Assembly: GCA_038063455.1 (NCBI GenBank)
Contig: JBBTVB010000002.1
Span: forward strand, 257,296-321,295
Origin: Patescibacteria group bacterium
GTDB lineage: Bacteria; Patescibacteriota; Patescibacteriia; PEXW01
Length of the DNA: 64,000 nt
Direction: 5' to 3'
The notes under the pieces are model-generated. The model made no database searches. It worked only from the letters and a program-made list of their open reading frames with translations, and was not told the DNA's origin. The stretch's first letter is position 1; each line of letters begins with the position of its first letter. This document shows positions 38,461-62,555 of the stretch, one piece after another. Both the position numbers and the translations under genes were made by a program.

Positions 38461-38871
38461 ATGCTCGCCCACCACTGGCACCCCCTGCACCCCGGCCGAA
38501 CCTTTGCGGGAACCATCCTCATTCTCACCTTCCTCTTTCGAGTGTGGGTGGTTTTTATTATTATCACGTTTGCCGCAACCCGCTACGGTTTGTCTGAACA
38601 GCTCATTGGGGCCAGCGCCATAAGCGCTCTGGCAATTATTCTGGACTTCTTCTTCACCGCGCGGCAATTTATTGGCTGGGACAAAACTATACCGCTGCGG
38701 TTTACTACCTACGCGATCAAACTAGCACTCATACTGGTAGCGGTTTGCTACGCGGCAAGCATCTGGCATGCCCGTCACGTCGTAGCATACTCAGCATTTG
38801 GTCTTTTCGTGGCTGCAATATTTGCACTAGACTTCCTGCTACTCCACCCCCATGCAAAAACGCGCCGCTAG
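38461..38871 (+). CDS. Hypothetical membrane protein (136 aa)
   Basis: Four hydrophobic segments. Overlaps the next gene by 20 nt. Confidence 0.5.
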   Translation: MLAHHWHPLHPGRTFAGTILILTFLFRVWVVFIIITFAATRYGLSEQLIGASAISALAIILDFFFTARQFIGWDKTIPLRFTTYAIKLALILVAVCYAASIWHARHVVAYSAFGLFVAAIFALDFLLLHPHAKTRR

Positions 38872-39208
38872 CTTCCTTATCGTTACGACTATCCTGCTGG
38901 CATGGAGCCTGCCCGGACTGGCGCAGGCCCTGTCCATTGAAACCGTGGGCGGCACGCTGGGCTTGGGTAGTGCAGATTTAAAAACCACCACCGTCAACAT
39001 CATCCAGTGGGTCTTGGGCCTGCTCGGGCTCATTGCGGTAGCCATGATTATTATAGGCAGCATCGTTGCTGCGACGAGTGCGGACAGCGACCGCGGGGAC
39101 GCCGCACGGAAAACAATTCTTGCGGCAATCATTGGACTGATTATTATTCTTATCTCCTGGGCCATTGTCACGTTTGTGATTGGCACCACCACAAATGTAA
39201 CCTCATAG
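38852..39208 (+). CDS. TrbC/VirB2-like small pilin-type membrane protein
   Basis: Signal peptide ending LAQA, then two TM helices separated by a charged loop (SADSDRGDAARK), the typical VirB2/TrbC topology. Confidence 0.5.
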   Translation: MQKRAASFLIVTTILLAWSLPGLAQALSIETVGGTLGLGSADLKTTTVNIIQWVLGLLGLIAVAMIIIGSIVAATSADSDRGDAARKTILAAIIGLIIILISWAIVTFVIGTTTNVTS

Positions 39209-39266: not shown

Positions 39267-39803
39267 TTAGACAGTACGTCGCTTCCGATAGGCAGCTACA
39301 GCTATAGGGATAATATGTTCCCAGTGATGGTCGATAGTGTTCTCGGGAAGATTATCAATATCGTACCAAGCGCCACCTGTAGGCTCACCGTCAAGTTCAA
39401 CGAGGAAAATTCGGTTATTGAAAGAACCGCGCTCTTCTTCGAAAAAAATTTCACCCACCAAATCAAAATTGGTAATGCCCACATGAAACTCACGCTTCGC
39501 CAAGCGGTCTATGACCCGACGGTACGCTCCATCGCTACAGGGGTCAATGTTTTCGAAATCGCTATTACGAAGAATGCTGCCGGGCGAGTGCTTCTCGCCG
39601 GGGTAGGCAGGTTCGTCGTCCGGTCTCTGGATCATATACACCTCAATAGTGTTGTTAGACCCTTGACGCAGAGCAACTGTTTCGACGGCGACCTGCGGGG
39701 TGAGGCGGGCGAGGGAGCCAAAAAGTTCCGGCGAAAATCCGTCACGACTATTGATGGCTGCCAATTCTCCCATAGCAAGCTGGCTGAGGACTTGTTGTGC
39801 CAC
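39267..39803 (-). CDS. Hypothetical protein (178 aa; possible Nudix-like fold, no canonical Nudix box seen)
   Basis: Clean ORF with no competing frame. Weak resemblance only. Confidence 0.5.
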   Translation of the reverse strand: MAQQVLSQLAMGELAAINSRDGFSPELFGSLARLTPQVAVETVALRQGSNNTIEVYMIQRPDDEPAYPGEKHSPGSILRNSDFENIDPCSDGAYRRVIDRLAKREFHVGITNFDLVGEIFFEEERGSFNNRIFLVELDGEPTGGAWYDIDNLPENTIDHHWEHIIPIAVAAYRKRRTV

Positions 39804-39908: not shown

Positions 39909-40472
39909 ATGATCATCACCATCAACGGCCGGCCCGGGTCCGGCAAATCCACTACCACGCAGCTCCTGGCTAAGGCATTGCACTTCCGTACTATTGATGT
40001 CGGCCAACTGCGCCGAAAGGCCGCGAAGCAGCACGGCATGACCCTGCACGAATTTAACCAGTGGTCCGAAAAACACCCGAATGCCGGCGACAAAGCCTTT
40101 GACCGGGCACTCGTTGCTACAGTGAAGCGGACAAAAAACGTCGTGGTAAGCAGCCGCACGGCCTTTCACTTCTTCCCCCAGGCATTCAATGTCTTCTTAG
40201 ATGTGAGCCCTGGTGTTGGTGCGCGGCGCATCCAAGCCGACCAGCACGACCGCTCCGTTGAAACTGGAAAACTCACCAGCGTCCGCGCTATCCAGCAAGC
40301 GGCAGCTAAACGCATGCGAAACGACGACCGCCGGTACCGAAAACTCTACGGCATCAACATTTTCCAGCAAAAAAACTACTCCTTCATCCTGAATACCACC
40401 CGTATCCCCATCCCGCAGGTTGTGCGCCGGGTACAAGGTGCTTTCCGCACCTGGCAAAAGCGCAAAAGCTAA
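39909..40472 (+). CDS. Cytidylate kinase-like P-loop kinase
   Basis: IITINGRPGSGKST Walker A with archaeal-type CMP kinase-like layout. Confidence 0.65.
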   Translation: MIITINGRPGSGKSTTTQLLAKALHFRTIDVGQLRRKAAKQHGMTLHEFNQWSEKHPNAGDKAFDRALVATVKRTKNVVVSSRTAFHFFPQAFNVFLDVSPGVGARRIQADQHDRSVETGKLTSVRAIQQAAAKRMRNDDRRYRKLYGINIFQQKNYSFILNTTRIPIPQVVRRVQGAFRTWQKRKS

Positions 40473-40501: not shown

Positions 40502-40530
40502 TTGACAAAGGGTCAAATTCCTGCTATACT
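40502..40530 (+). promoter_or_regulatory. Consensus sigma70 promoter TTGACA-17-TATACT
   Basis: Hexamers at 40502-40507 and 40525-40530. No ORF with SD downstream. Confidence 0.65.
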
Positions 40531-40536
40531 CCCTGT

Positions 40537-40957
40537 AGAAATAGAAACCGCTCCTTCATCAATCCAACGACTACTGCACTTGGGCCAACCAAGGAGCGAG
40601 AAGTACGACAGCTGGCACTACCAAACGTTGTGGGGCTTCTGTTCTACTACTCGTCATAGCTGTCCATGCAGCTGACTGAAAAGAAAAACTAGGAGAATAT
40701 AAAAATTCCCTAGCTTAAAAGGTTAATCTTTACGCTTTCGAGCCAGAGATATAACCACAAGAGTGGTAGTCACATTTATCGCGAAAACATGGAAAGCGAT
40801 GAATACACAGTTGTTTGTGGTTTATGATAATGCCTGCCACGTTTGCGTCTGCTCCTAGCGAGAAGAATCAAACGTGGCGGACATCGTCTACACAAACAAC
40901 CATTTAAGGGGCAGCCTATTAATCTCTATGATATACAGGCGTCGCCCCTTTTATTTT
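40537..40957 (+). ncRNA. Candidate ~420-nt structured non-coding RNA of unknown class
   Basis: Bounded by the promoter above and the terminator AAGGGGCAGCCT...AGGCGTCGCCCCTT + TTATTTTT (40906-40958). Long-range pairs include GTTGTTTGTG (40811-40820)/CACAAACAAC (40891-40900), GCCACGTTTG/CAAACGTGGC and GCTCCTT/AAGGAGC. Confidence 0.45.
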
Positions 40958-40994
40958 TGCTGAAAAAAAGTGAAAAATAGCGTATACTGCATGC

Positions 40995-41789
40995 ATGGCC
41001 AAAACTGCACCCACCAATGCACACGAAGCAAAGCTCCGGAAAGCCGGGCACCGACTGATTGCGGGCGTGGATGAAGCAGGCAAAGGCAGCTGGGCAGGGC
41101 CACTGGTTACTGCCGCGGTGATTTTGGATGAGAACGATATCCCGAACGAACTATATGATTCAAAAATGCTCACACCCGCACAACGCGAGCGAGCTTTTGT
41201 CGCAATCGCGAAAAAAGCATTAGCCTGGTCTGTGCACGTGGTGTCGGTTAACGACATAGATACGCACGGCGTGCACAAAGCAAATATAGCCGCGCTCAAA
41301 CGTGCAGTGGACAAACTCCACATCTCCCCCGATGCGGTGCTGGTTGATGCATTCAAAATTGATCTGGGAAAAATTCCCATGGTTAATATTATCGATGGCG
41401 ATGCGCTGGAACGAACCATTAGTGCCGCATCCATAATGGCCAAAGTCTCGCGAGATCGCTTGATGAGCTCGGAAATCCATCGGGCGCACCCAGAGTTTCA
41501 TTTTCATATTCATAAAGGTTACGGCACGCCCCTCCATGCAAAACTGCTTGCGATGCATGGCCCATCGCTCGAGCATCGCATGAGCTTTGCGCCGGTGAAA
41601 GCTGCGGCGGCTAAACCAAGAAAAAAGTCTAACGCAAAACGCAAAGCGAAACCAACAAAGAAAAAACTGGGCGCAAAAAAAGCAGTGCGACGTACAGTCC
41701 GCACAAAATCCGCAAAAAGGAGTATAACAAAGAGAGCGTCGCGCAAGCGGATAGCGAAGCCGAAACGCACAATACGCAAACGACGGTAA
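40995..41789 (+). CDS. rnhB: Ribonuclease HII with ~55-aa Lys/Arg-rich C-terminal tail
   Basis: GVDEAGKGSWAGPLVTAAV, DSKMLT and KGYGT motifs. The tail is KPRKKSNAKRKAKPTKKK... Confidence 0.9.
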   Translation: MAKTAPTNAHEAKLRKAGHRLIAGVDEAGKGSWAGPLVTAAVILDENDIPNELYDSKMLTPAQRERAFVAIAKKALAWSVHVVSVNDIDTHGVHKANIAALKRAVDKLHISPDAVLVDAFKIDLGKIPMVNIIDGDALERTISAASIMAKVSRDRLMSSEIHRAHPEFHFHIHKGYGTPLHAKLLAMHGPSLEHRMSFAPVKAAAAKPRKKSNAKRKAKPTKKKLGAKKAVRRTVRTKSAKRSITKRASRKRIAKPKRTIRKRR

Positions 41790-42694: not shown

Positions 42695-42791
42695 GCTGTC
42701 ATGCCTCTATATTGACATTCCAACCAACCCGTGTATACTGCAGCTACTGACAGCCTGAATAGGCTGTTTTCTTTTTTGATACCTTACGTCA

Positions 42792-44177
42792 ATGTCTGAC
42801 AACCCGATTATTAGCGCGATGCAGCAGATCGCCGACGAGAAGCGCATTCCTATGGATGCCGTGCTCCACACGGTGGAAGCCGCCCTGGCCGTGGCCTACC
42901 GCAAGGATTTTGGCGAGAAAGACCAGAATATTAAAGTTGAGTTCAGTTTGGAAGACGGCTCCAGCCGCGTCTTTGACGTGAAGACGGTGGTGGAGGATGA
43001 GAAGAAAGCCACCACCGAAGCGTACGATGCCGAGCGCAAAGCCAAGATAGAAGCCGAGGAAGCAGAACGTGCAGCCAAGGTTGCAGCCGGTGAAACTGTT
43101 GTCCGCACCGAAGAAGAAGCCCGCGCCGAAGCCAGCCAACCTGCCGAACCGGTGACCACCGAAGAGCCAGCGTTCGAACGCTTTGACCCGAAAACGGAAA
43201 TTGCCAAGGCTGATGCCCAGGCGTTGAAAAAAGGTGCAAAGATCGGCGACACCATTAAAACCGAGCTCTTCCCGCCCGCAGCATACGGTCGTATGGCTGC
43301 GCAGACTGCCAAGCAGGTCATTATCCAGCAACTGCGCGAGGCGGAGCGGGAAATTGTGTTTAACGAATTTAAAGATAAGGAAGGCGAACTCATGAACGCC
43401 ACCGTGCAGCGGCAGGAAGGCCGGCTGGTGATGATTGATATTGGCCATGCCGTAGCAATCATGCCGCCGGGTGAGCAGCTGCCCACGGAGCAGTACCGGG
43501 CTGGCGCGCGCATCAAGGTGTACATTGTGTCCGTCAACTCCACCACCAAAGGCCCGGAAATTGTAGTATCCCGCACGCACCCCGAAATGGTCCGCAAACT
43601 CTTTGCGGTGGAAGTGCCAGAAATTCAGAACGGCACGGTAGAAATTAAGGCTGTGGCCCGCGAGGCCGGCTTCCGCTCCAAAATTGCGGTGAGCTCAACC
43701 CAGCCGAACATCGACCCGATTGGTTCGTGCGTGGGCCAGCGCGGCAGCCGCGTGCAGACCGTGATTAACGAACTCGGCGGCGAAAAAATTGATATTATTG
43801 AATGGGCCGAAGACCCCATTGGCTTTATTGGCAACGCCCTGTCGCCAGCCAAGGTCATTTCTATTACCCTGGATAACGACACGCACACGGCCAAAGTTGA
43901 AGTAAAAGAAGATCAGCTCTCGCTAGCTATTGGCAAGTCTGGGCAGAACGTCCGGTTGGCCGCCAAACTCTCGGGCTGGCGGATTGATATTGTGGGCGAA
44001 GGTGGTGCACCGCGCAAAAAAGAAGGTGAAGTTATAGCGGAAGCAGCCCCAACGGATGAGGTGCCAGCAGTGGTCGAAACCCCTGCCGAAGGCACGCTGG
44101 AAACCCCGCCAGAAGTTGTCGCAGAAACACCAGTGGAAACTGCACCGGAAGTGCCGGCCGAAGAACCGAAAGCTTAA
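42792..44177 (+). CDS. nusA: Transcription termination/antitermination factor NusA (with acidic insert and C-terminal extension)
   Basis: N-terminal domain, S1 and two KH domains ([23 protein letters not shown]). Confidence 0.9.
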
Positions 44178-50309: not shown

Positions 50310-50522
50310 GAAATAAAAAGGGCGCGGAGAGTCATGCTCGTCTGCGCCTTGCTTCGGATGCTTGGGTTTCCGCCTGTAGGTTGTATCGTCCTCTTGGACT
50401 TTGGGCGGCTTTTTTGGTAACGGAATTCGACGCTTGATAGGCTTGTCTTTTTTCACTGTTCTTCCTTTGTGAAGGTGCATCCTAGCGCACCAGATCGGAC
50501 GAGTCAATGGTATACTGGCTCC

Positions 50523-51365
50523 ATGCTCATCGGACATCACGTCTCGGCAGCGGGCGGTAGCCAGAATGCCCCAAAGAACGCCCACGACCTCAAGTGCGAA
50601 ATCTTTCAATTCTTCACCCGCTCCCCGCAAGGCGGGGCCGCGCCAAAATTGACGCCAGAAATTGTTGCTGCCTTCAAAGCCGAGAACACAAAGTACAGCA
50701 TAGCGCGAACGTACGTCCACACGCCGTACTTTATTAACTTTGCTTCAGCCAATGCTGGTTTGCGTAAAGGCTCTATTGAAATCGTCCGGGGTGAGTTGGA
50801 GCGCTCATCCCTGCTCGGCGTGACCGCAGTAATGACACACCTCGGCTCGGCAAAAGACGTGGGTGAAGTGAAAGCACAAAAAATGGTGGGTGATGGAGTG
50901 AAGGCAATCCTAAAAGGCTACACGGGTTCGGCGCTCTTCTTATTAGAAAACTCTGCCGGCTCTGGCGCGGCCATCGGTGGCACACTCGAACAACTTGCCG
51001 CGTTTATCAACGCTGTTCCCGCCACCCAACGAAAAAAACTGGGTATTTGTGTCGATACGTGCCATGCCTTTGCCAGCGGCTATGACCTGCGGACCAAATC
51101 CACGGTGGATGCCTTCCTGAAAAAATTCGACAAGCTCATTGGCCTGCAATACCTTAAGCTCTTCCATGTGAACGACAGTAAAATGGACTTAGGCGAACAT
51201 AAAGACCGGCACGAGCACATTGGCGACGGCAAAATTGGCCTTGCTGGCTTTAAGGCCCTCTGCGCCCATCCAAAATTGAAGAATATCGATATGATTTTGG
51301 AAACCCACCACGATGGCAAGCACATTGCCGACATCGCGCTCTTGAAAAAACTTCGAAAAAACTAG
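50523..51365 (+). CDS. nfo: Endonuclease IV
   Basis: MLIGHHVS..., HTPY, LENSAG and HVNDSK..G...DRHE.IG.G motifs. TATACT lies 6 nt before the ATG. Confidence 0.9.
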   Translation: MLIGHHVSAAGGSQNAPKNAHDLKCEIFQFFTRSPQGGAAPKLTPEIVAAFKAENTKYSIARTYVHTPYFINFASANAGLRKGSIEIVRGELERSSLLGVTAVMTHLGSAKDVGEVKAQKMVGDGVKAILKGYTGSALFLLENSAGSGAAIGGTLEQLAAFINAVPATQRKKLGICVDTCHAFASGYDLRTKSTVDAFLKKFDKLIGLQYLKLFHVNDSKMDLGEHKDRHEHIGDGKIGLAGFKALCAHPKLKNIDMILETHHDGKHIADIALLKKLRKN

Positions 51366-62387: not shown

Positions 62388-62555
62388 GTGCCTAGTGTAT
62401 CATGCAGGTTAAAGTTTTTGGCACCAGCAAAATATACTTCCCTAATGCATAGTAAAATAAAAATGCGCAACAACACCGAGGGTGTAGCATAATCAACAGA
62501 AGGCACTTGTGTATAGCGAGTACCTTGTCATATGCAAACATGGTAAGCTAGATAC

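What the first reader, a model, noticed from the sequence alone, without database searches (positions are those of the whole stretch)
40502..40957. Orphan ~420-nt transcription unit with consensus promoter and strong terminator but no ORF: unknown structured RNA
- TTGACA-17-TATACT (40502-40530) is the best promoter match I see in the window.
- The unit ends at a long GC stem plus U-run (40906-40958), just before the separate rnhB promoter.
- Inside, multiple long-range complementarities exist: GCTCCTT 40549/AAGGAGC 40591, GACAGCT/AGCTGTC, CTAGG/CCTAG, GCCACGTTTG/CAAACGTGGC and GTTGTTTGTG 40811/CACAAACAAC 40891.
- No ORF above 12 codons has an SD.
- I could not find the signature sequences of RNase P RNA (GGAAAGTCC), tmRNA (T-loop and CCA end) or SRP RNA (GGAAGCAGC).
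Basis: partly seen in the sequence, partly recalled or inferred. Interest (0 to 1): 0.6.

Follow-up and report, generated by a model that had tools for sequence, protein, structure and literature searches.

The report
New large structured RNA in Kerfeldbacteria
This is a real, separately transcribed gene for a roughly 420-base folded RNA that makes no protein, matches no known RNA family, and is conserved next to the same kinase gene in a group of tiny-genome groundwater bacteria, so it is probably a new housekeeping RNA of unknown function.

Summary
Window 40502-40958 (+) carries a perfect extended promoter (TTGACA-14-TGc-TATACT), a ~422-nt non-coding body and a -19 kcal/mol terminator with a U-run.

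- **Organism:** a Candidatus Kerfeldbacteria (Patescibacteria/CPR) groundwater MAG.
- **Conservation:** I found 14 distinct full-length or near full-length homologues. Nucleotide identity is as high as, or higher than, the flanking genes, and no ORF is conserved.
- **Structure:** 98 base pairs are 97% paired (about 40% in slid controls), and 31 show double compensatory changes.
- **Two added features:** a loop-loop pseudoknot (CCAUG/CAUGG, switching to CCACA/UGUGG and CCCAC/GUGGG), and two mutually exclusive pairings of one pyrimidine-rich strand.
- **Synteny:** the RNA tracks the upstream archaeal-type cmk-like gene, not rnhB. Three more distant lineages (cmk 40-44% identical) have the same promoter, a 370-395-nt RNA with the same helix order, the pseudoknot with different sequences, and a terminator, sometimes followed by lspA instead.
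- **Downstream genes:** rnhB and lspA have their own leaderless promoters, so the RNA is not their leader.
- **Known families:** Rfam 15 gives only noise in three lineages even at E<=10, and ARAGORN finds no tmRNA.

Best reading: a new family of abundant, trans-acting, compactly folded RNA. Its function is inferred, not shown.

The parts
39909..40472 (+). Upstream archaeal-type cytidylate-kinase-like gene (187 aa). It is the constant neighbour of the RNA in every lineage.
   Evidence: Pfam Cytidylate_kin2/AAA_18. The order cmk -> RNA holds in all clade A loci and in L030, L031-33, L036, L038 and L041.
40502..40530 (+). Sigma-70-type promoter: -35 TTGACA (40502-07), extended -10 TGcTATACT (40522-30).
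   Evidence: Scores 11/12 with TG. Only perfect match in the window. Invariant TTGACA and TATACT in all homologues.
40537..40568 (+). Inferred transcription start (A at 40537, 7 nt after the -10) and a 5' single-stranded, A-rich leader.
   Evidence: AGAAA is conserved at this distance from the -10. The leader is unpaired in the consensus fold. The start site is inferred, not measured.
40569..40582 (+). P1 5' strand (GACUACUGCACUUG). It pairs long-range with 40758-40771.
   Evidence: 93% of cells paired. Only one-sided changes plus two single-sequence double changes.
40597..40653 (+). H2/H3 long irregular hairpin. The 5' strand X is CGAGAAGUA. The 3' strand X' is CUACUACUCG, inside the invariant block GCUUCUGUUCUACUNCUCGUCAUAG.
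   Evidence: 99-100% paired. The 3' strand is invariant in 13-14 sequences.
40654..40679 (+). H4 hairpin. Its apical loop CCAUG (40664-40668) is the 5' half of the pseudoknot.
   Evidence: Three pairs carry double changes. Loop covariation with the H7 loop.
40680..40688 (+). A-rich single-stranded linker (AAAGAAAAA). It continues in 40714-40720 (CUUAAAA).
   Evidence: Unpaired and conserved. A 20-25-nt A-rich linker sits at the same place in clade B, L030 and L041.
40689..40713 (+). H5 hairpin (CUAGGAGAA-UAUAAAAA-UUCCCUAG). Specific to clade A.
   Evidence: Two pairs carry double changes and the loop AUAAAA is invariant. Absent from clade B.
40721..40756 (+). H6 hairpin with a UUCG-like cap.
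   Evidence: 14 pairs, 98% paired, three with double changes. An equivalent hairpin exists in clade B.
40758..40771 (+). P1 3' strand, also called X2 (CAAGAGUGGUAGUC), within the invariant ACCACAAGAGUGGUAG. It can pair with either the P1 5' strand or X'.
   Evidence: Both pairings are 95-98% paired in clade A.
40776..40803 (+). H7 hairpin. Its 14-nt loop holds CAUGG (40788-40792), the 3' half of the pseudoknot.
40809..40901 (+). H8-H9 long rod. Structure is conserved while sequence is free, apart from the internal-loop residues GGUUnAUGG / GUCUAC.
   Evidence: 33 pairs, 20 with double compensatory changes.
40905..40958 (+). Intrinsic terminator: stem 40906-40950 with a long AU-rich loop, then UUAUUUUU.
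   Evidence: -19.0 kcal/mol. Compensatory changes in the stem. Present in all homologues.
40960..40997 (+). Separate rnhB promoter (CTGAAA-17-TATACT) with the ATG 6 nt after the -10, giving a leaderless mRNA. This is not part of the RNA gene; it marks its boundary.

Best explanation
Window 40537-40958 (+) is a stand-alone gene for a ~420-nt non-coding RNA that belongs to no described family.

Shown here:
- It has its own consensus extended -10 promoter and its own intrinsic terminator.
- It is single-copy and inherited vertically, directly downstream of an archaeal-type cmk-like gene, in Kerfeldbacteria-like CPR bacteria.
- It folds into a conserved multi-domain structure. A 5' core holds the H2/H3, H4, (H5) and H6 hairpins around an A-rich single-stranded linker. 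A 3' domain holds H7 and a long rod.
- A loop-loop pseudoknot (H4 loop with H7 loop) locks the two domains together.
- One invariant pyrimidine-rich strand (X') can pair with either of two purine-rich partners, X or X2, about 115 nt apart. Predicted stabilities are similar.

Inferred:
- It is made in large amounts and acts in trans.
- It acts as the RNA part of a ribonucleoprotein or an RNA-only assembly.
- The compact pseudoknotted core and the sequence-invariant helix provide a specific binding or active surface.
- The X/X'/X2 exchange works as a conformational switch that exposes or hides the purine-rich strand and the A-rich linker.

I put about 0.95 on 'real, independent, structured ncRNA gene of a new family'. 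I put about 0.35-0.4 on the RNP scaffold/switch mechanism specifically.
For: Promoter and terminator.

Conservation:
- Nine species-level genomes plus metagenome contigs carry full-length homologues.
- RNA nucleotide identity is 68-82%, against 60-79% for cmk and 66-77% for rnhB.

Structure:
- 98 pairs, 97.2% paired against 38-48% when slid.
- 31 pairs have double changes, and 0/500 shuffles reach the observed values.

Pseudoknot:
- Clade A uses CCAUG/CAUGG, CCACA/UGUGG and CCCAC/GUGGG.
- Clade B uses CCGAG/CUCGG and CCAAG/CUUGG. L041 uses UCCGAG/CUCGGA and L030 uses GCUGAC/GUCAGC (read).

Bistable strand: the X:X' and X':X2 duplexes both score -12 to -19 kcal/mol in nine representatives of four lineages, with different sequences in each.

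Not coding: no ORF is conserved.

Not a leader:
- rnhB and lspA carry their own TATACT/TACACT-N6-ATG leaderless promoters, including in relatives that lack the RNA.
- The downstream gene differs between lineages, rnhB versus lspA.
- In assembly GCA_964518425.1 the RNA stays with cmk (L033) while rnhB sits elsewhere without it (L013).

Not a known family.

Not viral: no hit in IMG/VR.
Against: - No expression data. Transcription, abundance and the exact ends are inferred from sequence signals.
- Nothing here identifies a partner protein, ligand or target. The cmk-like neighbour is an ordinary P-loop NMP kinase with no RNA-binding domain.
- Homology between clade A and the three distant lineages is not established by score. 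nhmmer finds nothing. The clade A core covariance model gives only 4-17 bits at the right places, within the range of chance hairpins.
- The two competing pairings cannot be separated by covariation within clade A. One of them could be non-functional.
- CPR RNase P RNAs are known to be diverged (PMC8172020), so failure of Rfam models is not absolute proof against a universal RNA.
Confidence: 0.6

Rival explanations
1. It is an extremely diverged RNase P RNA, or another universal RNA such as tmRNA, SRP RNA or 6S RNA, that Rfam models no longer recognise.
For: - The size (370-430 nt), the strong promoter, single copy, vertical inheritance and a long-range helix of invariant sequence all fit a housekeeping RNA.
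- None of these RNAs was found in the 64-kb window.
- CPR RNase P RNAs often fall below Rfam thresholds and need manual refolding (PMC8172020).
Against: - With permissive filters and E<=10, chance hits down to 10 bits are listed. Even so, no RNase P, tmRNA, SRP or 6S model appears in three different lineages.
- ARAGORN finds no tmRNA.
- The helix topology is a 5' single strand, four simple hairpins inside one long-range helix, then two more hairpins and a terminator. It lacks P1-P3, the nested P5/P7-P12 specificity domain, the GAGGAAAGUCC and ACAGAA...GGCUUA P4 motifs, a T-arm and a CCA end.
- The RNA is absent from related Kerfeldbacteria loci and from cmk loci of other CPR, whereas universal RNAs should be everywhere.
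- In Lui et al. all CPR genomes examined, including five of class ABY1, yielded an RNase P RNA with model RF00010 at a lowered threshold.
Confidence: 0.07
2. It is an RNA-only homo-oligomeric assembly of the ROOL/GOLLD/OLE type. On this reading the H4-H7 loop pairing is made between copies of the RNA rather than within one.
For: - Covariation cannot tell cis from trans pairing.
- The loop sequence is palindromic (CCAUGG) in most clade A members.
- Large ornate bacterial RNAs were recently shown to form homo-oligomers held by kissing loops (PMC12286853, abstract).
Against: - There is no direct evidence.
- In several lineages the loops are not palindromic (CCACA/UGUGG, GCUGAC/GUCAGC), so self-pairing of a single loop is not the conserved feature.
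- There is no Rfam similarity to ROOL, GOLLD or OLE.
Confidence: 0.12
3. It is a cis-acting leader (riboswitch or attenuator) that controls the downstream genes through its terminator, with the X/X'/X2 exchange as the expression platform.
For: - It ends in a terminator 37 nt before rnhB.
- It contains mutually exclusive helices, as attenuators do.
Against: - The alternative helices lie 135-300 nt upstream of the terminator and do not overlap it.
- The downstream gene differs between lineages, rnhB versus lspA.
- Both downstream genes have their own -10 box 6 nt before the ATG, so they are leaderless and a read-through transcript would place the AUG internally without an SD. This is also true in relatives without the RNA.
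- Insertions of 190-820 nt separate the RNA from rnhB in L023 and L011.
Confidence: 0.04
4. It is an mRNA for a small protein, or the 3' UTR of cmk.
For: ORFs of 29-45 codons exist in the window copy.
Against: - No ORF is shared in frame and position by the 13 homologues. Indels are not multiples of three, and substitutions are compensatory in helices.
- The unit has its own invariant promoter downstream of the cmk stop codon.
Confidence: 0.02

Closest known systems
Large 'ornate' orphan bacterial ncRNAs (OLE, ROOL, GOLLD, raiA motif RNA)
   Same: - It is several hundred nucleotides long, with many covarying helices, invariant nucleotides in junctions and loops, and long-range tertiary pairing.
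- It has its own promoter and terminator and encodes no protein.
- Its phylogenetic range is narrow and its biochemical function is unknown.
   Different: - There is no sequence or structure match to any of them in Rfam 15.
- The host group differs: CPR/Kerfeldbacteria rather than Firmicutes, Actinobacteria or phages.
- The gene neighbourhood differs: a cmk-like gene, with no oapA/oapB, tRNA arrays or prophage context.
- It is smaller than OLE, ROOL and GOLLD.
Bacterial RNase P RNA (Rfam RF00010/RF00011)
   Same: - Similar length.
- A highly conserved long-range helix encloses several hairpins.
- Junctions are A-rich, and the genomic context is housekeeping.
- CPR versions are known to be diverged (PMC8172020).
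   Different: - There is no model hit even at E<=10.
- It lacks P1-P3, the P4 consensus sequences and the nested specificity domain.
- The 3' half (H7, rod, terminator) has no counterpart.
- It is restricted to part of one lineage.
Transcription attenuators and riboswitch expression platforms (mutually exclusive 1:2 / 2:3 helices)
   Same: One strand (X') has two alternative partners of similar stability, and this is conserved across lineages despite sequence change.
   Different: - The switch is not coupled to the terminator or to a downstream ORF.
- The RNA appears to be a separate trans-acting gene.
6S RNA / CsrB-type protein-sequestering RNAs
   Same: - An abundant stand-alone RNA from a strong constitutive promoter.
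- Possible single-stranded protein-binding tract (the A-rich linker).
- Possible conformational rearrangement.
   Different: - It has no 6S rod with a central bubble.
- It has only a few GGA motifs rather than the many repeated ones of CsrB.
- There are no Rfam hits.

Membership tests
Bacterial RNase P RNA (RF00010/RF00011) | A covariance-model match, even a sub-threshold one. | tested here: not met
   No RNase P model is listed at E<=10 in the window RNA, L031 or L030, although chance hits of 10-19 bits are listed.
Bacterial RNase P RNA (RF00010/RF00011) | A P4 helix formed by GAGGAAAGUCC... and ACAGAA..GGCUUA, preceded by P1-P3 and enclosing the nested P5/P7-P12 domain. | tested here: not met
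   These motifs are absent from the consensus. The consensus fold has a single-stranded 5' end and four simple hairpins inside the long-range helix.
Bacterial RNase P RNA (RF00010/RF00011) | No other RNase P RNA gene in the same genome. | not testable with these tools
   Only about 20-kb loci and the 64-kb window could be read.
tmRNA | A tRNA-like domain (paired 5'/3' ends, T-arm, CCA) and a tag reading frame. | tested here: not met
   ARAGORN finds none and there is no Rfam hit. The 3' end is an intrinsic terminator, and the A-rich region is full of stop codons.
SRP RNA / 6S RNA | A covariance-model match, plus the domain IV motif (SRP) or a rod with a central bubble (6S). | tested here: not met
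   No hits at E<=10. The architecture is multi-domain and pseudoknotted.
OLE / ROOL / GOLLD / raiA / HEARO large ncRNAs | A match to the Rfam model of the family. | tested here: not met
   No hits at gathering score or at E<=10.
OLE / ROOL / GOLLD / raiA / HEARO large ncRNAs | The characteristic gene neighbourhood: oapA/oapB for OLE, prophage or tRNA clusters for GOLLD/ROOL, IscB/TnpB for HEARO. | tested here: not met
   The neighbours are pnp, the cmk-like gene, rnhB or lspA, a methyltransferase, yraN and nusA. There is no IMG/VR hit.
cis-regulatory leader (riboswitch / attenuator) | The regulated ORF lies on the same transcript, and the alternative structure overlaps the terminator or the RBS. 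| tested here: not met
   Downstream genes vary between lineages and have their own leaderless promoters. The alternative helices are far from the terminator.
Independent structured ncRNA gene (generic) | Own promoter and terminator, conservation, significant covariation, and no conserved ORF. | tested here: met
Independent structured ncRNA gene (generic) | A discrete transcript observed experimentally. | not testable with these tools
   No transcriptome data were available.

The most novel reading that the evidence does not exclude
The RNA is a lineage-specific catalytic or self-assembling RNA machine of CPR bacteria. It would be either a new large ribozyme or a ROOL/GOLLD-like RNA-only assembly. 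Its pseudoknotted core and conserved two-state helix exchange would carry out a housekeeping task that other bacteria do with proteins, which would explain why a ~1-Mb genome keeps a 420-nt RNA under a consensus promoter.
Probability: 0.2. Interest if true: 0.9.

Novelty: categorically new. Interest (0 to 1): 0.68.

Why it matters
Large RNAs of more than 350 nt with complex tertiary structure are rare in bacteria. Nearly every class understood so far (ribosome, RNase P, tmRNA, group I/II introns) does something fundamental. The few orphans (OLE, ROOL, GOLLD, raiA) have turned out to be structurally unprecedented.

CPR bacteria have about 1-Mb genomes with very little non-coding DNA. A 420-nt RNA under the best promoter in 64 kb, kept across lineages whose neighbouring proteins are only 40% identical, is therefore probably important to them.

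The finding also supplies concrete, testable features:
- a covarying loop-loop pseudoknot;
- a conserved two-state helix;
- an A-rich single-stranded tract;
- a ready alignment for structure determination.

If the rival is true and this is a disguised universal RNA, it would still be the most diverged example known.

Tried and rejected
- **Rfam.** I ran gathering score on the window, on 11 distant loci and on 8 RNA-bearing loci; only tRNAs appeared. I ran E<=10 on the window RNA, L031 and L030; only miRNA, snoRNA and lncRNA noise on single hairpins appeared.
- **ARAGORN.** No tmRNA.
- **Synteny with rnhB.** I looked for the RNA upstream of rnhB in more distant Kerfeldbacteria (L013-L022) with nhmmer --max and found nothing. 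Gaps of similar size in L020 and L021 hold an antisense small ORF, not the RNA. That led me to drop rnhB as the anchor and find cmk as the real one.
- **Covariance model.** A model of the clade A core was meant to link the other lineages statistically. It hit the right place and strand in all six loci, but at 4-17 bits, which is not separable from chance hairpins. I therefore call those lineages probable, not proven, homologues.
- **Viral origin.** No match in IMG/VR to the invariant 21-mer.
- **Coding.** No conserved ORF.
- **cmk-like protein as a dedicated RNA partner.** The alignment shows an ordinary NMP kinase. K/R-rich tails occur in one clade only. Archaeal and other bacterial homologues have no adjacent RNA.
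- **Which pairing is native.** I tried to decide between P1+H2 and X':X2 by covariation. Both are 95-98% paired, with almost no informative variation.
- **Literature.** Searches for Kerfeldbacteria or Patescibacteria ncRNAs found no description of this RNA. One possibly relevant 2026 preprint on mining prokaryotic non-coding elements (10.64898/2026.09.22.753630) could not be opened.

Full report
**1. What is at the coordinates**

The window comes from a Candidatus Kerfeldbacteria (Patescibacteria/CPR) groundwater MAG. The RNase HII protein encoded at 40995-41789 is found identically on contig CAYIMS010000003.1 of GCA_964364675.1 and on Hainich aquifer contigs. Its closest relatives are Kerfeldbacteria and Patescibacteria MAGs.

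- **Promoter.** The consensus scan reports TTGACA-17-TATACT with a TG extension at 40502-40530, scoring 11/12. It is the only zero-mismatch match to TTGACA-N14-TGNTATACT in the 64 kb.
- **Terminator.** The unit ends in a 45-nt hairpin (40906-40950, -19.0 kcal/mol) followed by UUAUUUUU.
- **Fold.** The 422-nt body folds far better than shuffles, with z = -8.7.
- **Known RNAs.** Rfam 15 finds only six tRNAs in the window at gathering score. At E<=10 it finds only microRNA-precursor noise on one hairpin. ARAGORN finds no tmRNA.

**2. Conservation and structure**

*Homologues.* Loci around RNase HII homologues in GTDB genomes, plus a metagenome scan with an invariant 21-mer, gave 13 distinct full-length homologues and one partial one by nhmmer. 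One more came from a cmk look-up (L034).
- All sit between a cytidylate-kinase-like gene and rnhB.
- The -35 and -10 hexamers are invariant and the terminator is always present.
- Nucleotide identity to the window copy is 68-82% for the RNA, against 60-79% for cmk and 66-77% for rnhB.
- No ORF is shared in frame and position.

*Covariation.* RNAalifold predicts about 100 pairs. Counted independently, 98 pairs are 97.2% paired, against 38-48% when the 3' partners are slid. Thirty-one pairs carry double compensatory changes, and 0 of 500 column shuffles reach any of the observed measures.

*Architecture* (window coordinates):
- 5' single strand, 40537-68.
- Long-range helix P1, 40569-82 with 40758-71.
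- Inside P1: the H2/H3 hairpin (40597-653), H4 (40654-79), an A-rich linker, H5 (40689-713) and H6 (40721-56).
- After P1: H7 (40776-803), a 93-nt rod H8-H9 (40809-901) with 20 covarying pairs, and the terminator.

The other two are not the conserved pairings.

**3. Tertiary features**

*Pseudoknot.* A scan of unpaired columns found that the H4 loop pairs with the H7 loop.
- Most clade A members use CCAUG/CAUGG.
- L005, L008 and L024 use CCACA/UGUGG.
- L034 uses CCCAC/GUGGG.
- The pairing extends to CCAUGA/UCAUGG in L011, L012 and L023.

On the alignment the pairing is 93.8% paired, against 23-46% slid. No shuffle reaches the observed covariation score, the percentage paired or the number of double-change cells; the other two measures are not above the shuffles.

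*Two-state strand.* The invariant pyrimidine-rich 3' strand of H2 (X') can pair in two ways. One partner is its local 5' strand X. The other is X2, a purine-rich look-alike of X about 115 nt downstream, which is also the 3' strand of P1.
- Within clade A both alternatives are 95-98% paired and are not separable.
- One position (A-U, then G-U, then G-C in L034) favours X':X2, while one U-A to A-U change favours P1.

**4. The real genomic anchor, and a wider family**

Distant Kerfeldbacteria loci found through rnhB lack the RNA. Homologues of the upstream cmk-like protein told a different story. At 40-44% identity there are four lineages or loci groups of interest:
- L030.
- Clade B: L031/L032, L033, L036 and L038.
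- L041.

In each of these, the cmk-like gene is followed by a gene-free stretch that holds TTGACA-17-TGnTATACT, a 368-394-nt (L041 ~400-nt) RNA and a terminator hairpin. The called-gene gaps are 315-660 nt (460-484 nt in four of the six loci; the 315-nt gap in L038 reflects an over-extended lspA call). The next gene is rnhB in L030 but lspA in the others.

In assembly GCA_964518425.1 the RNA is next to cmk (L033), while rnhB (L013) is on another contig without it.

Archaeal cmk homologues and another bacterial one have no such gap.

Clade B folds with 39 covarying pairs among only four sequences. The order of elements is the same as in clade A:
- a long H2 hairpin;
- H4;
- a 20-25-nt A-rich linker (no H5);
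- H6;
- a purine-rich X2 segment;
- a hairpin whose loop pairs with the H4 loop;
- a long rod;
- the terminator.

The pseudoknot is kept with new sequences. Clade B uses CCGAG/CUCGG, changing to CCAAG/CUUGG in L036. L041 uses UCCGAG/CUCGGA and L030 uses GCUGAC/GUCAGC.

The two-state strand is kept too. X:X' and X':X2 duplexes score -12 to -19 kcal/mol in nine representatives of four lineages, although the sequences differ.

The statistical link is weak:
- nhmmer finds nothing between lineages.
- The clade A core covariance model hits the right place and strand in all six loci, but at only 4-17 bits.

I therefore treat these lineages as probable homologues, on the grounds of synteny, promoter, size and architecture. 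Rfam at E<=10 is equally empty for L031 and L030.

**5. What it is not**

*Not a leader.*
- rnhB and lspA each have a TATACT/TACACT box exactly 6 nt before the ATG, so they are leaderless. This is also true in relatives that lack the RNA.
- The pattern TATACT-N6-ATG is enriched in the window: 3 matches against 0.12 expected.
- Insertions of 190-820 nt separate the RNA from rnhB in L023 and L011.

*Not an mRNA.* No ORF is conserved.

*Not mobile or viral.* It is single-copy, absent from IMG/VR, and in stable synteny with pnp, cmk and nusA.

*Not a recognisable universal RNA.* CPR RNase P RNAs are known to be diverged (PMC8172020), so I did not rely on cmscan alone.
- The topology lacks P1-P3, the P4 consensus motifs and the nested specificity domain. 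It adds a 3' half with no counterpart in RNase P.
- The RNA is missing from related lineages.
- In that paper all CPR genomes examined, including five of class ABY1, yielded RNase P RNA with RF00010 at a lowered threshold. That Kerfeldbacteria belong to ABY1 is from my own knowledge of GTDB.

I could not scan whole genomes, so this rival keeps about 7%.

**6. How it most likely works**

*Shown:* an independent gene; a compact, pseudoknotted, multi-domain fold; invariant sequence in one helix and in the junctions; a conserved A-rich single strand; and a conserved pair of mutually exclusive helices.

*Inferred:* high constitutive expression, and action in trans as the RNA component of an RNP or an RNA-only assembly. 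On this model the invariant H2/H3-X2 region is the recognition or active surface. The X/X'/X2 exchange is a switch that exposes the purine-rich strand and the A-rich tract. It may be set during transcription or by a partner.

My estimates:
- RNP scaffold or regulator: 35-40%.
- RNA-only oligomer: ~12%.
- Ribozyme: ~10%.
- Disguised universal RNA: ~7%.
- cis-regulator: ~4%.
- Coding or UTR: ~2%.
- The remainder is unassigned.

**7. Comparison and novelty**

It most resembles the large ornate orphan RNAs (OLE, ROOL, GOLLD, raiA) in size, complexity and lack of a known function. It matches none of their models or gene contexts. Its two-state helix resembles attenuator logic but is uncoupled from the terminator.

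I found no description of it in Rfam 15 or in the searchable literature. As an RNA family it is new. Whether its function is also new cannot be decided from sequence.

Noticed in passing
window 40983-40997, 50511-50525, 62433-62447; also L010-L019 upstream of rnhB and L031/L038 upstream of lspA: Genes appear to be expressed as leaderless mRNAs, with a TATACT/TACACT -10 box exactly 6 nt before the ATG and no Shine-Dalgarno sequence. The pattern occurs 3 times in the window against 0.12 expected. It is conserved upstream of rnhB and lspA across Kerfeldbacteria.
   Followed up: partly
window 42712-42792: A second near-consensus promoter (TTGACA-16-TATACT, 42712-42739) is followed at once by a terminator-like hairpin (42749-42768) and a T-run, about 20 nt before the nusA start codon (42792). 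This looks like a short attenuator-type leader, possibly NusA autoregulation.
   Followed up: no
window 40995-41789 (rnhB); clade B cmk-like proteins P0033, P0034, P0039, P0056: RNase HII carries a ~60-residue Lys/Arg-rich C-terminal tail. The cmk-like kinases of clade B carry similar K/R-rich tails, which are absent from clade A and from archaeal homologues.
   Followed up: no
L034/L035 10590-11060; L011/L026 between the RNA and rnhB (L011 9178-10000); L023 2183-2374: Insertions sit next to the RNA gene in some genomes. L034 has a ~480-nt block of GC-rich palindromic repeats between cmk and the RNA promoter. L011 and L023 have ~820-nt and ~190-nt inserts between the RNA terminator and rnhB. 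The RNA unit itself is left intact.
   Followed up: no
L016 934-2173; L020 9510-9977; L021 3240-3709: Distant Kerfeldbacteria have gene-poor stretches upstream of rnhB that are unrelated to this RNA. In L016 the stretch is a GC-rich 1.2-kb region with minus-strand small ORFs. L020 and L021 share a conserved ~60-codon minus-strand ORF. There are no Rfam hits.
   Followed up: partly
window 40906-40950 and homologues: The terminator hairpin is unusually long, at about 45 nt. It has a semi-conserved AU-rich loop of 17-20 nt (UUAAUCUCUAUGAUAUAC and similar) in all lineages. It may have a function beyond termination.
   Followed up: no
window 38852-39208 and 39267-39803 (-): A T4SS-pilin-like gene and a 178-aa hypothetical gene on the opposite strand lie between the PadR cluster and cmk in some clade A genomes but not in others. 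The region upstream of cmk is therefore variable, while cmk-RNA is constant.
   Followed up: no
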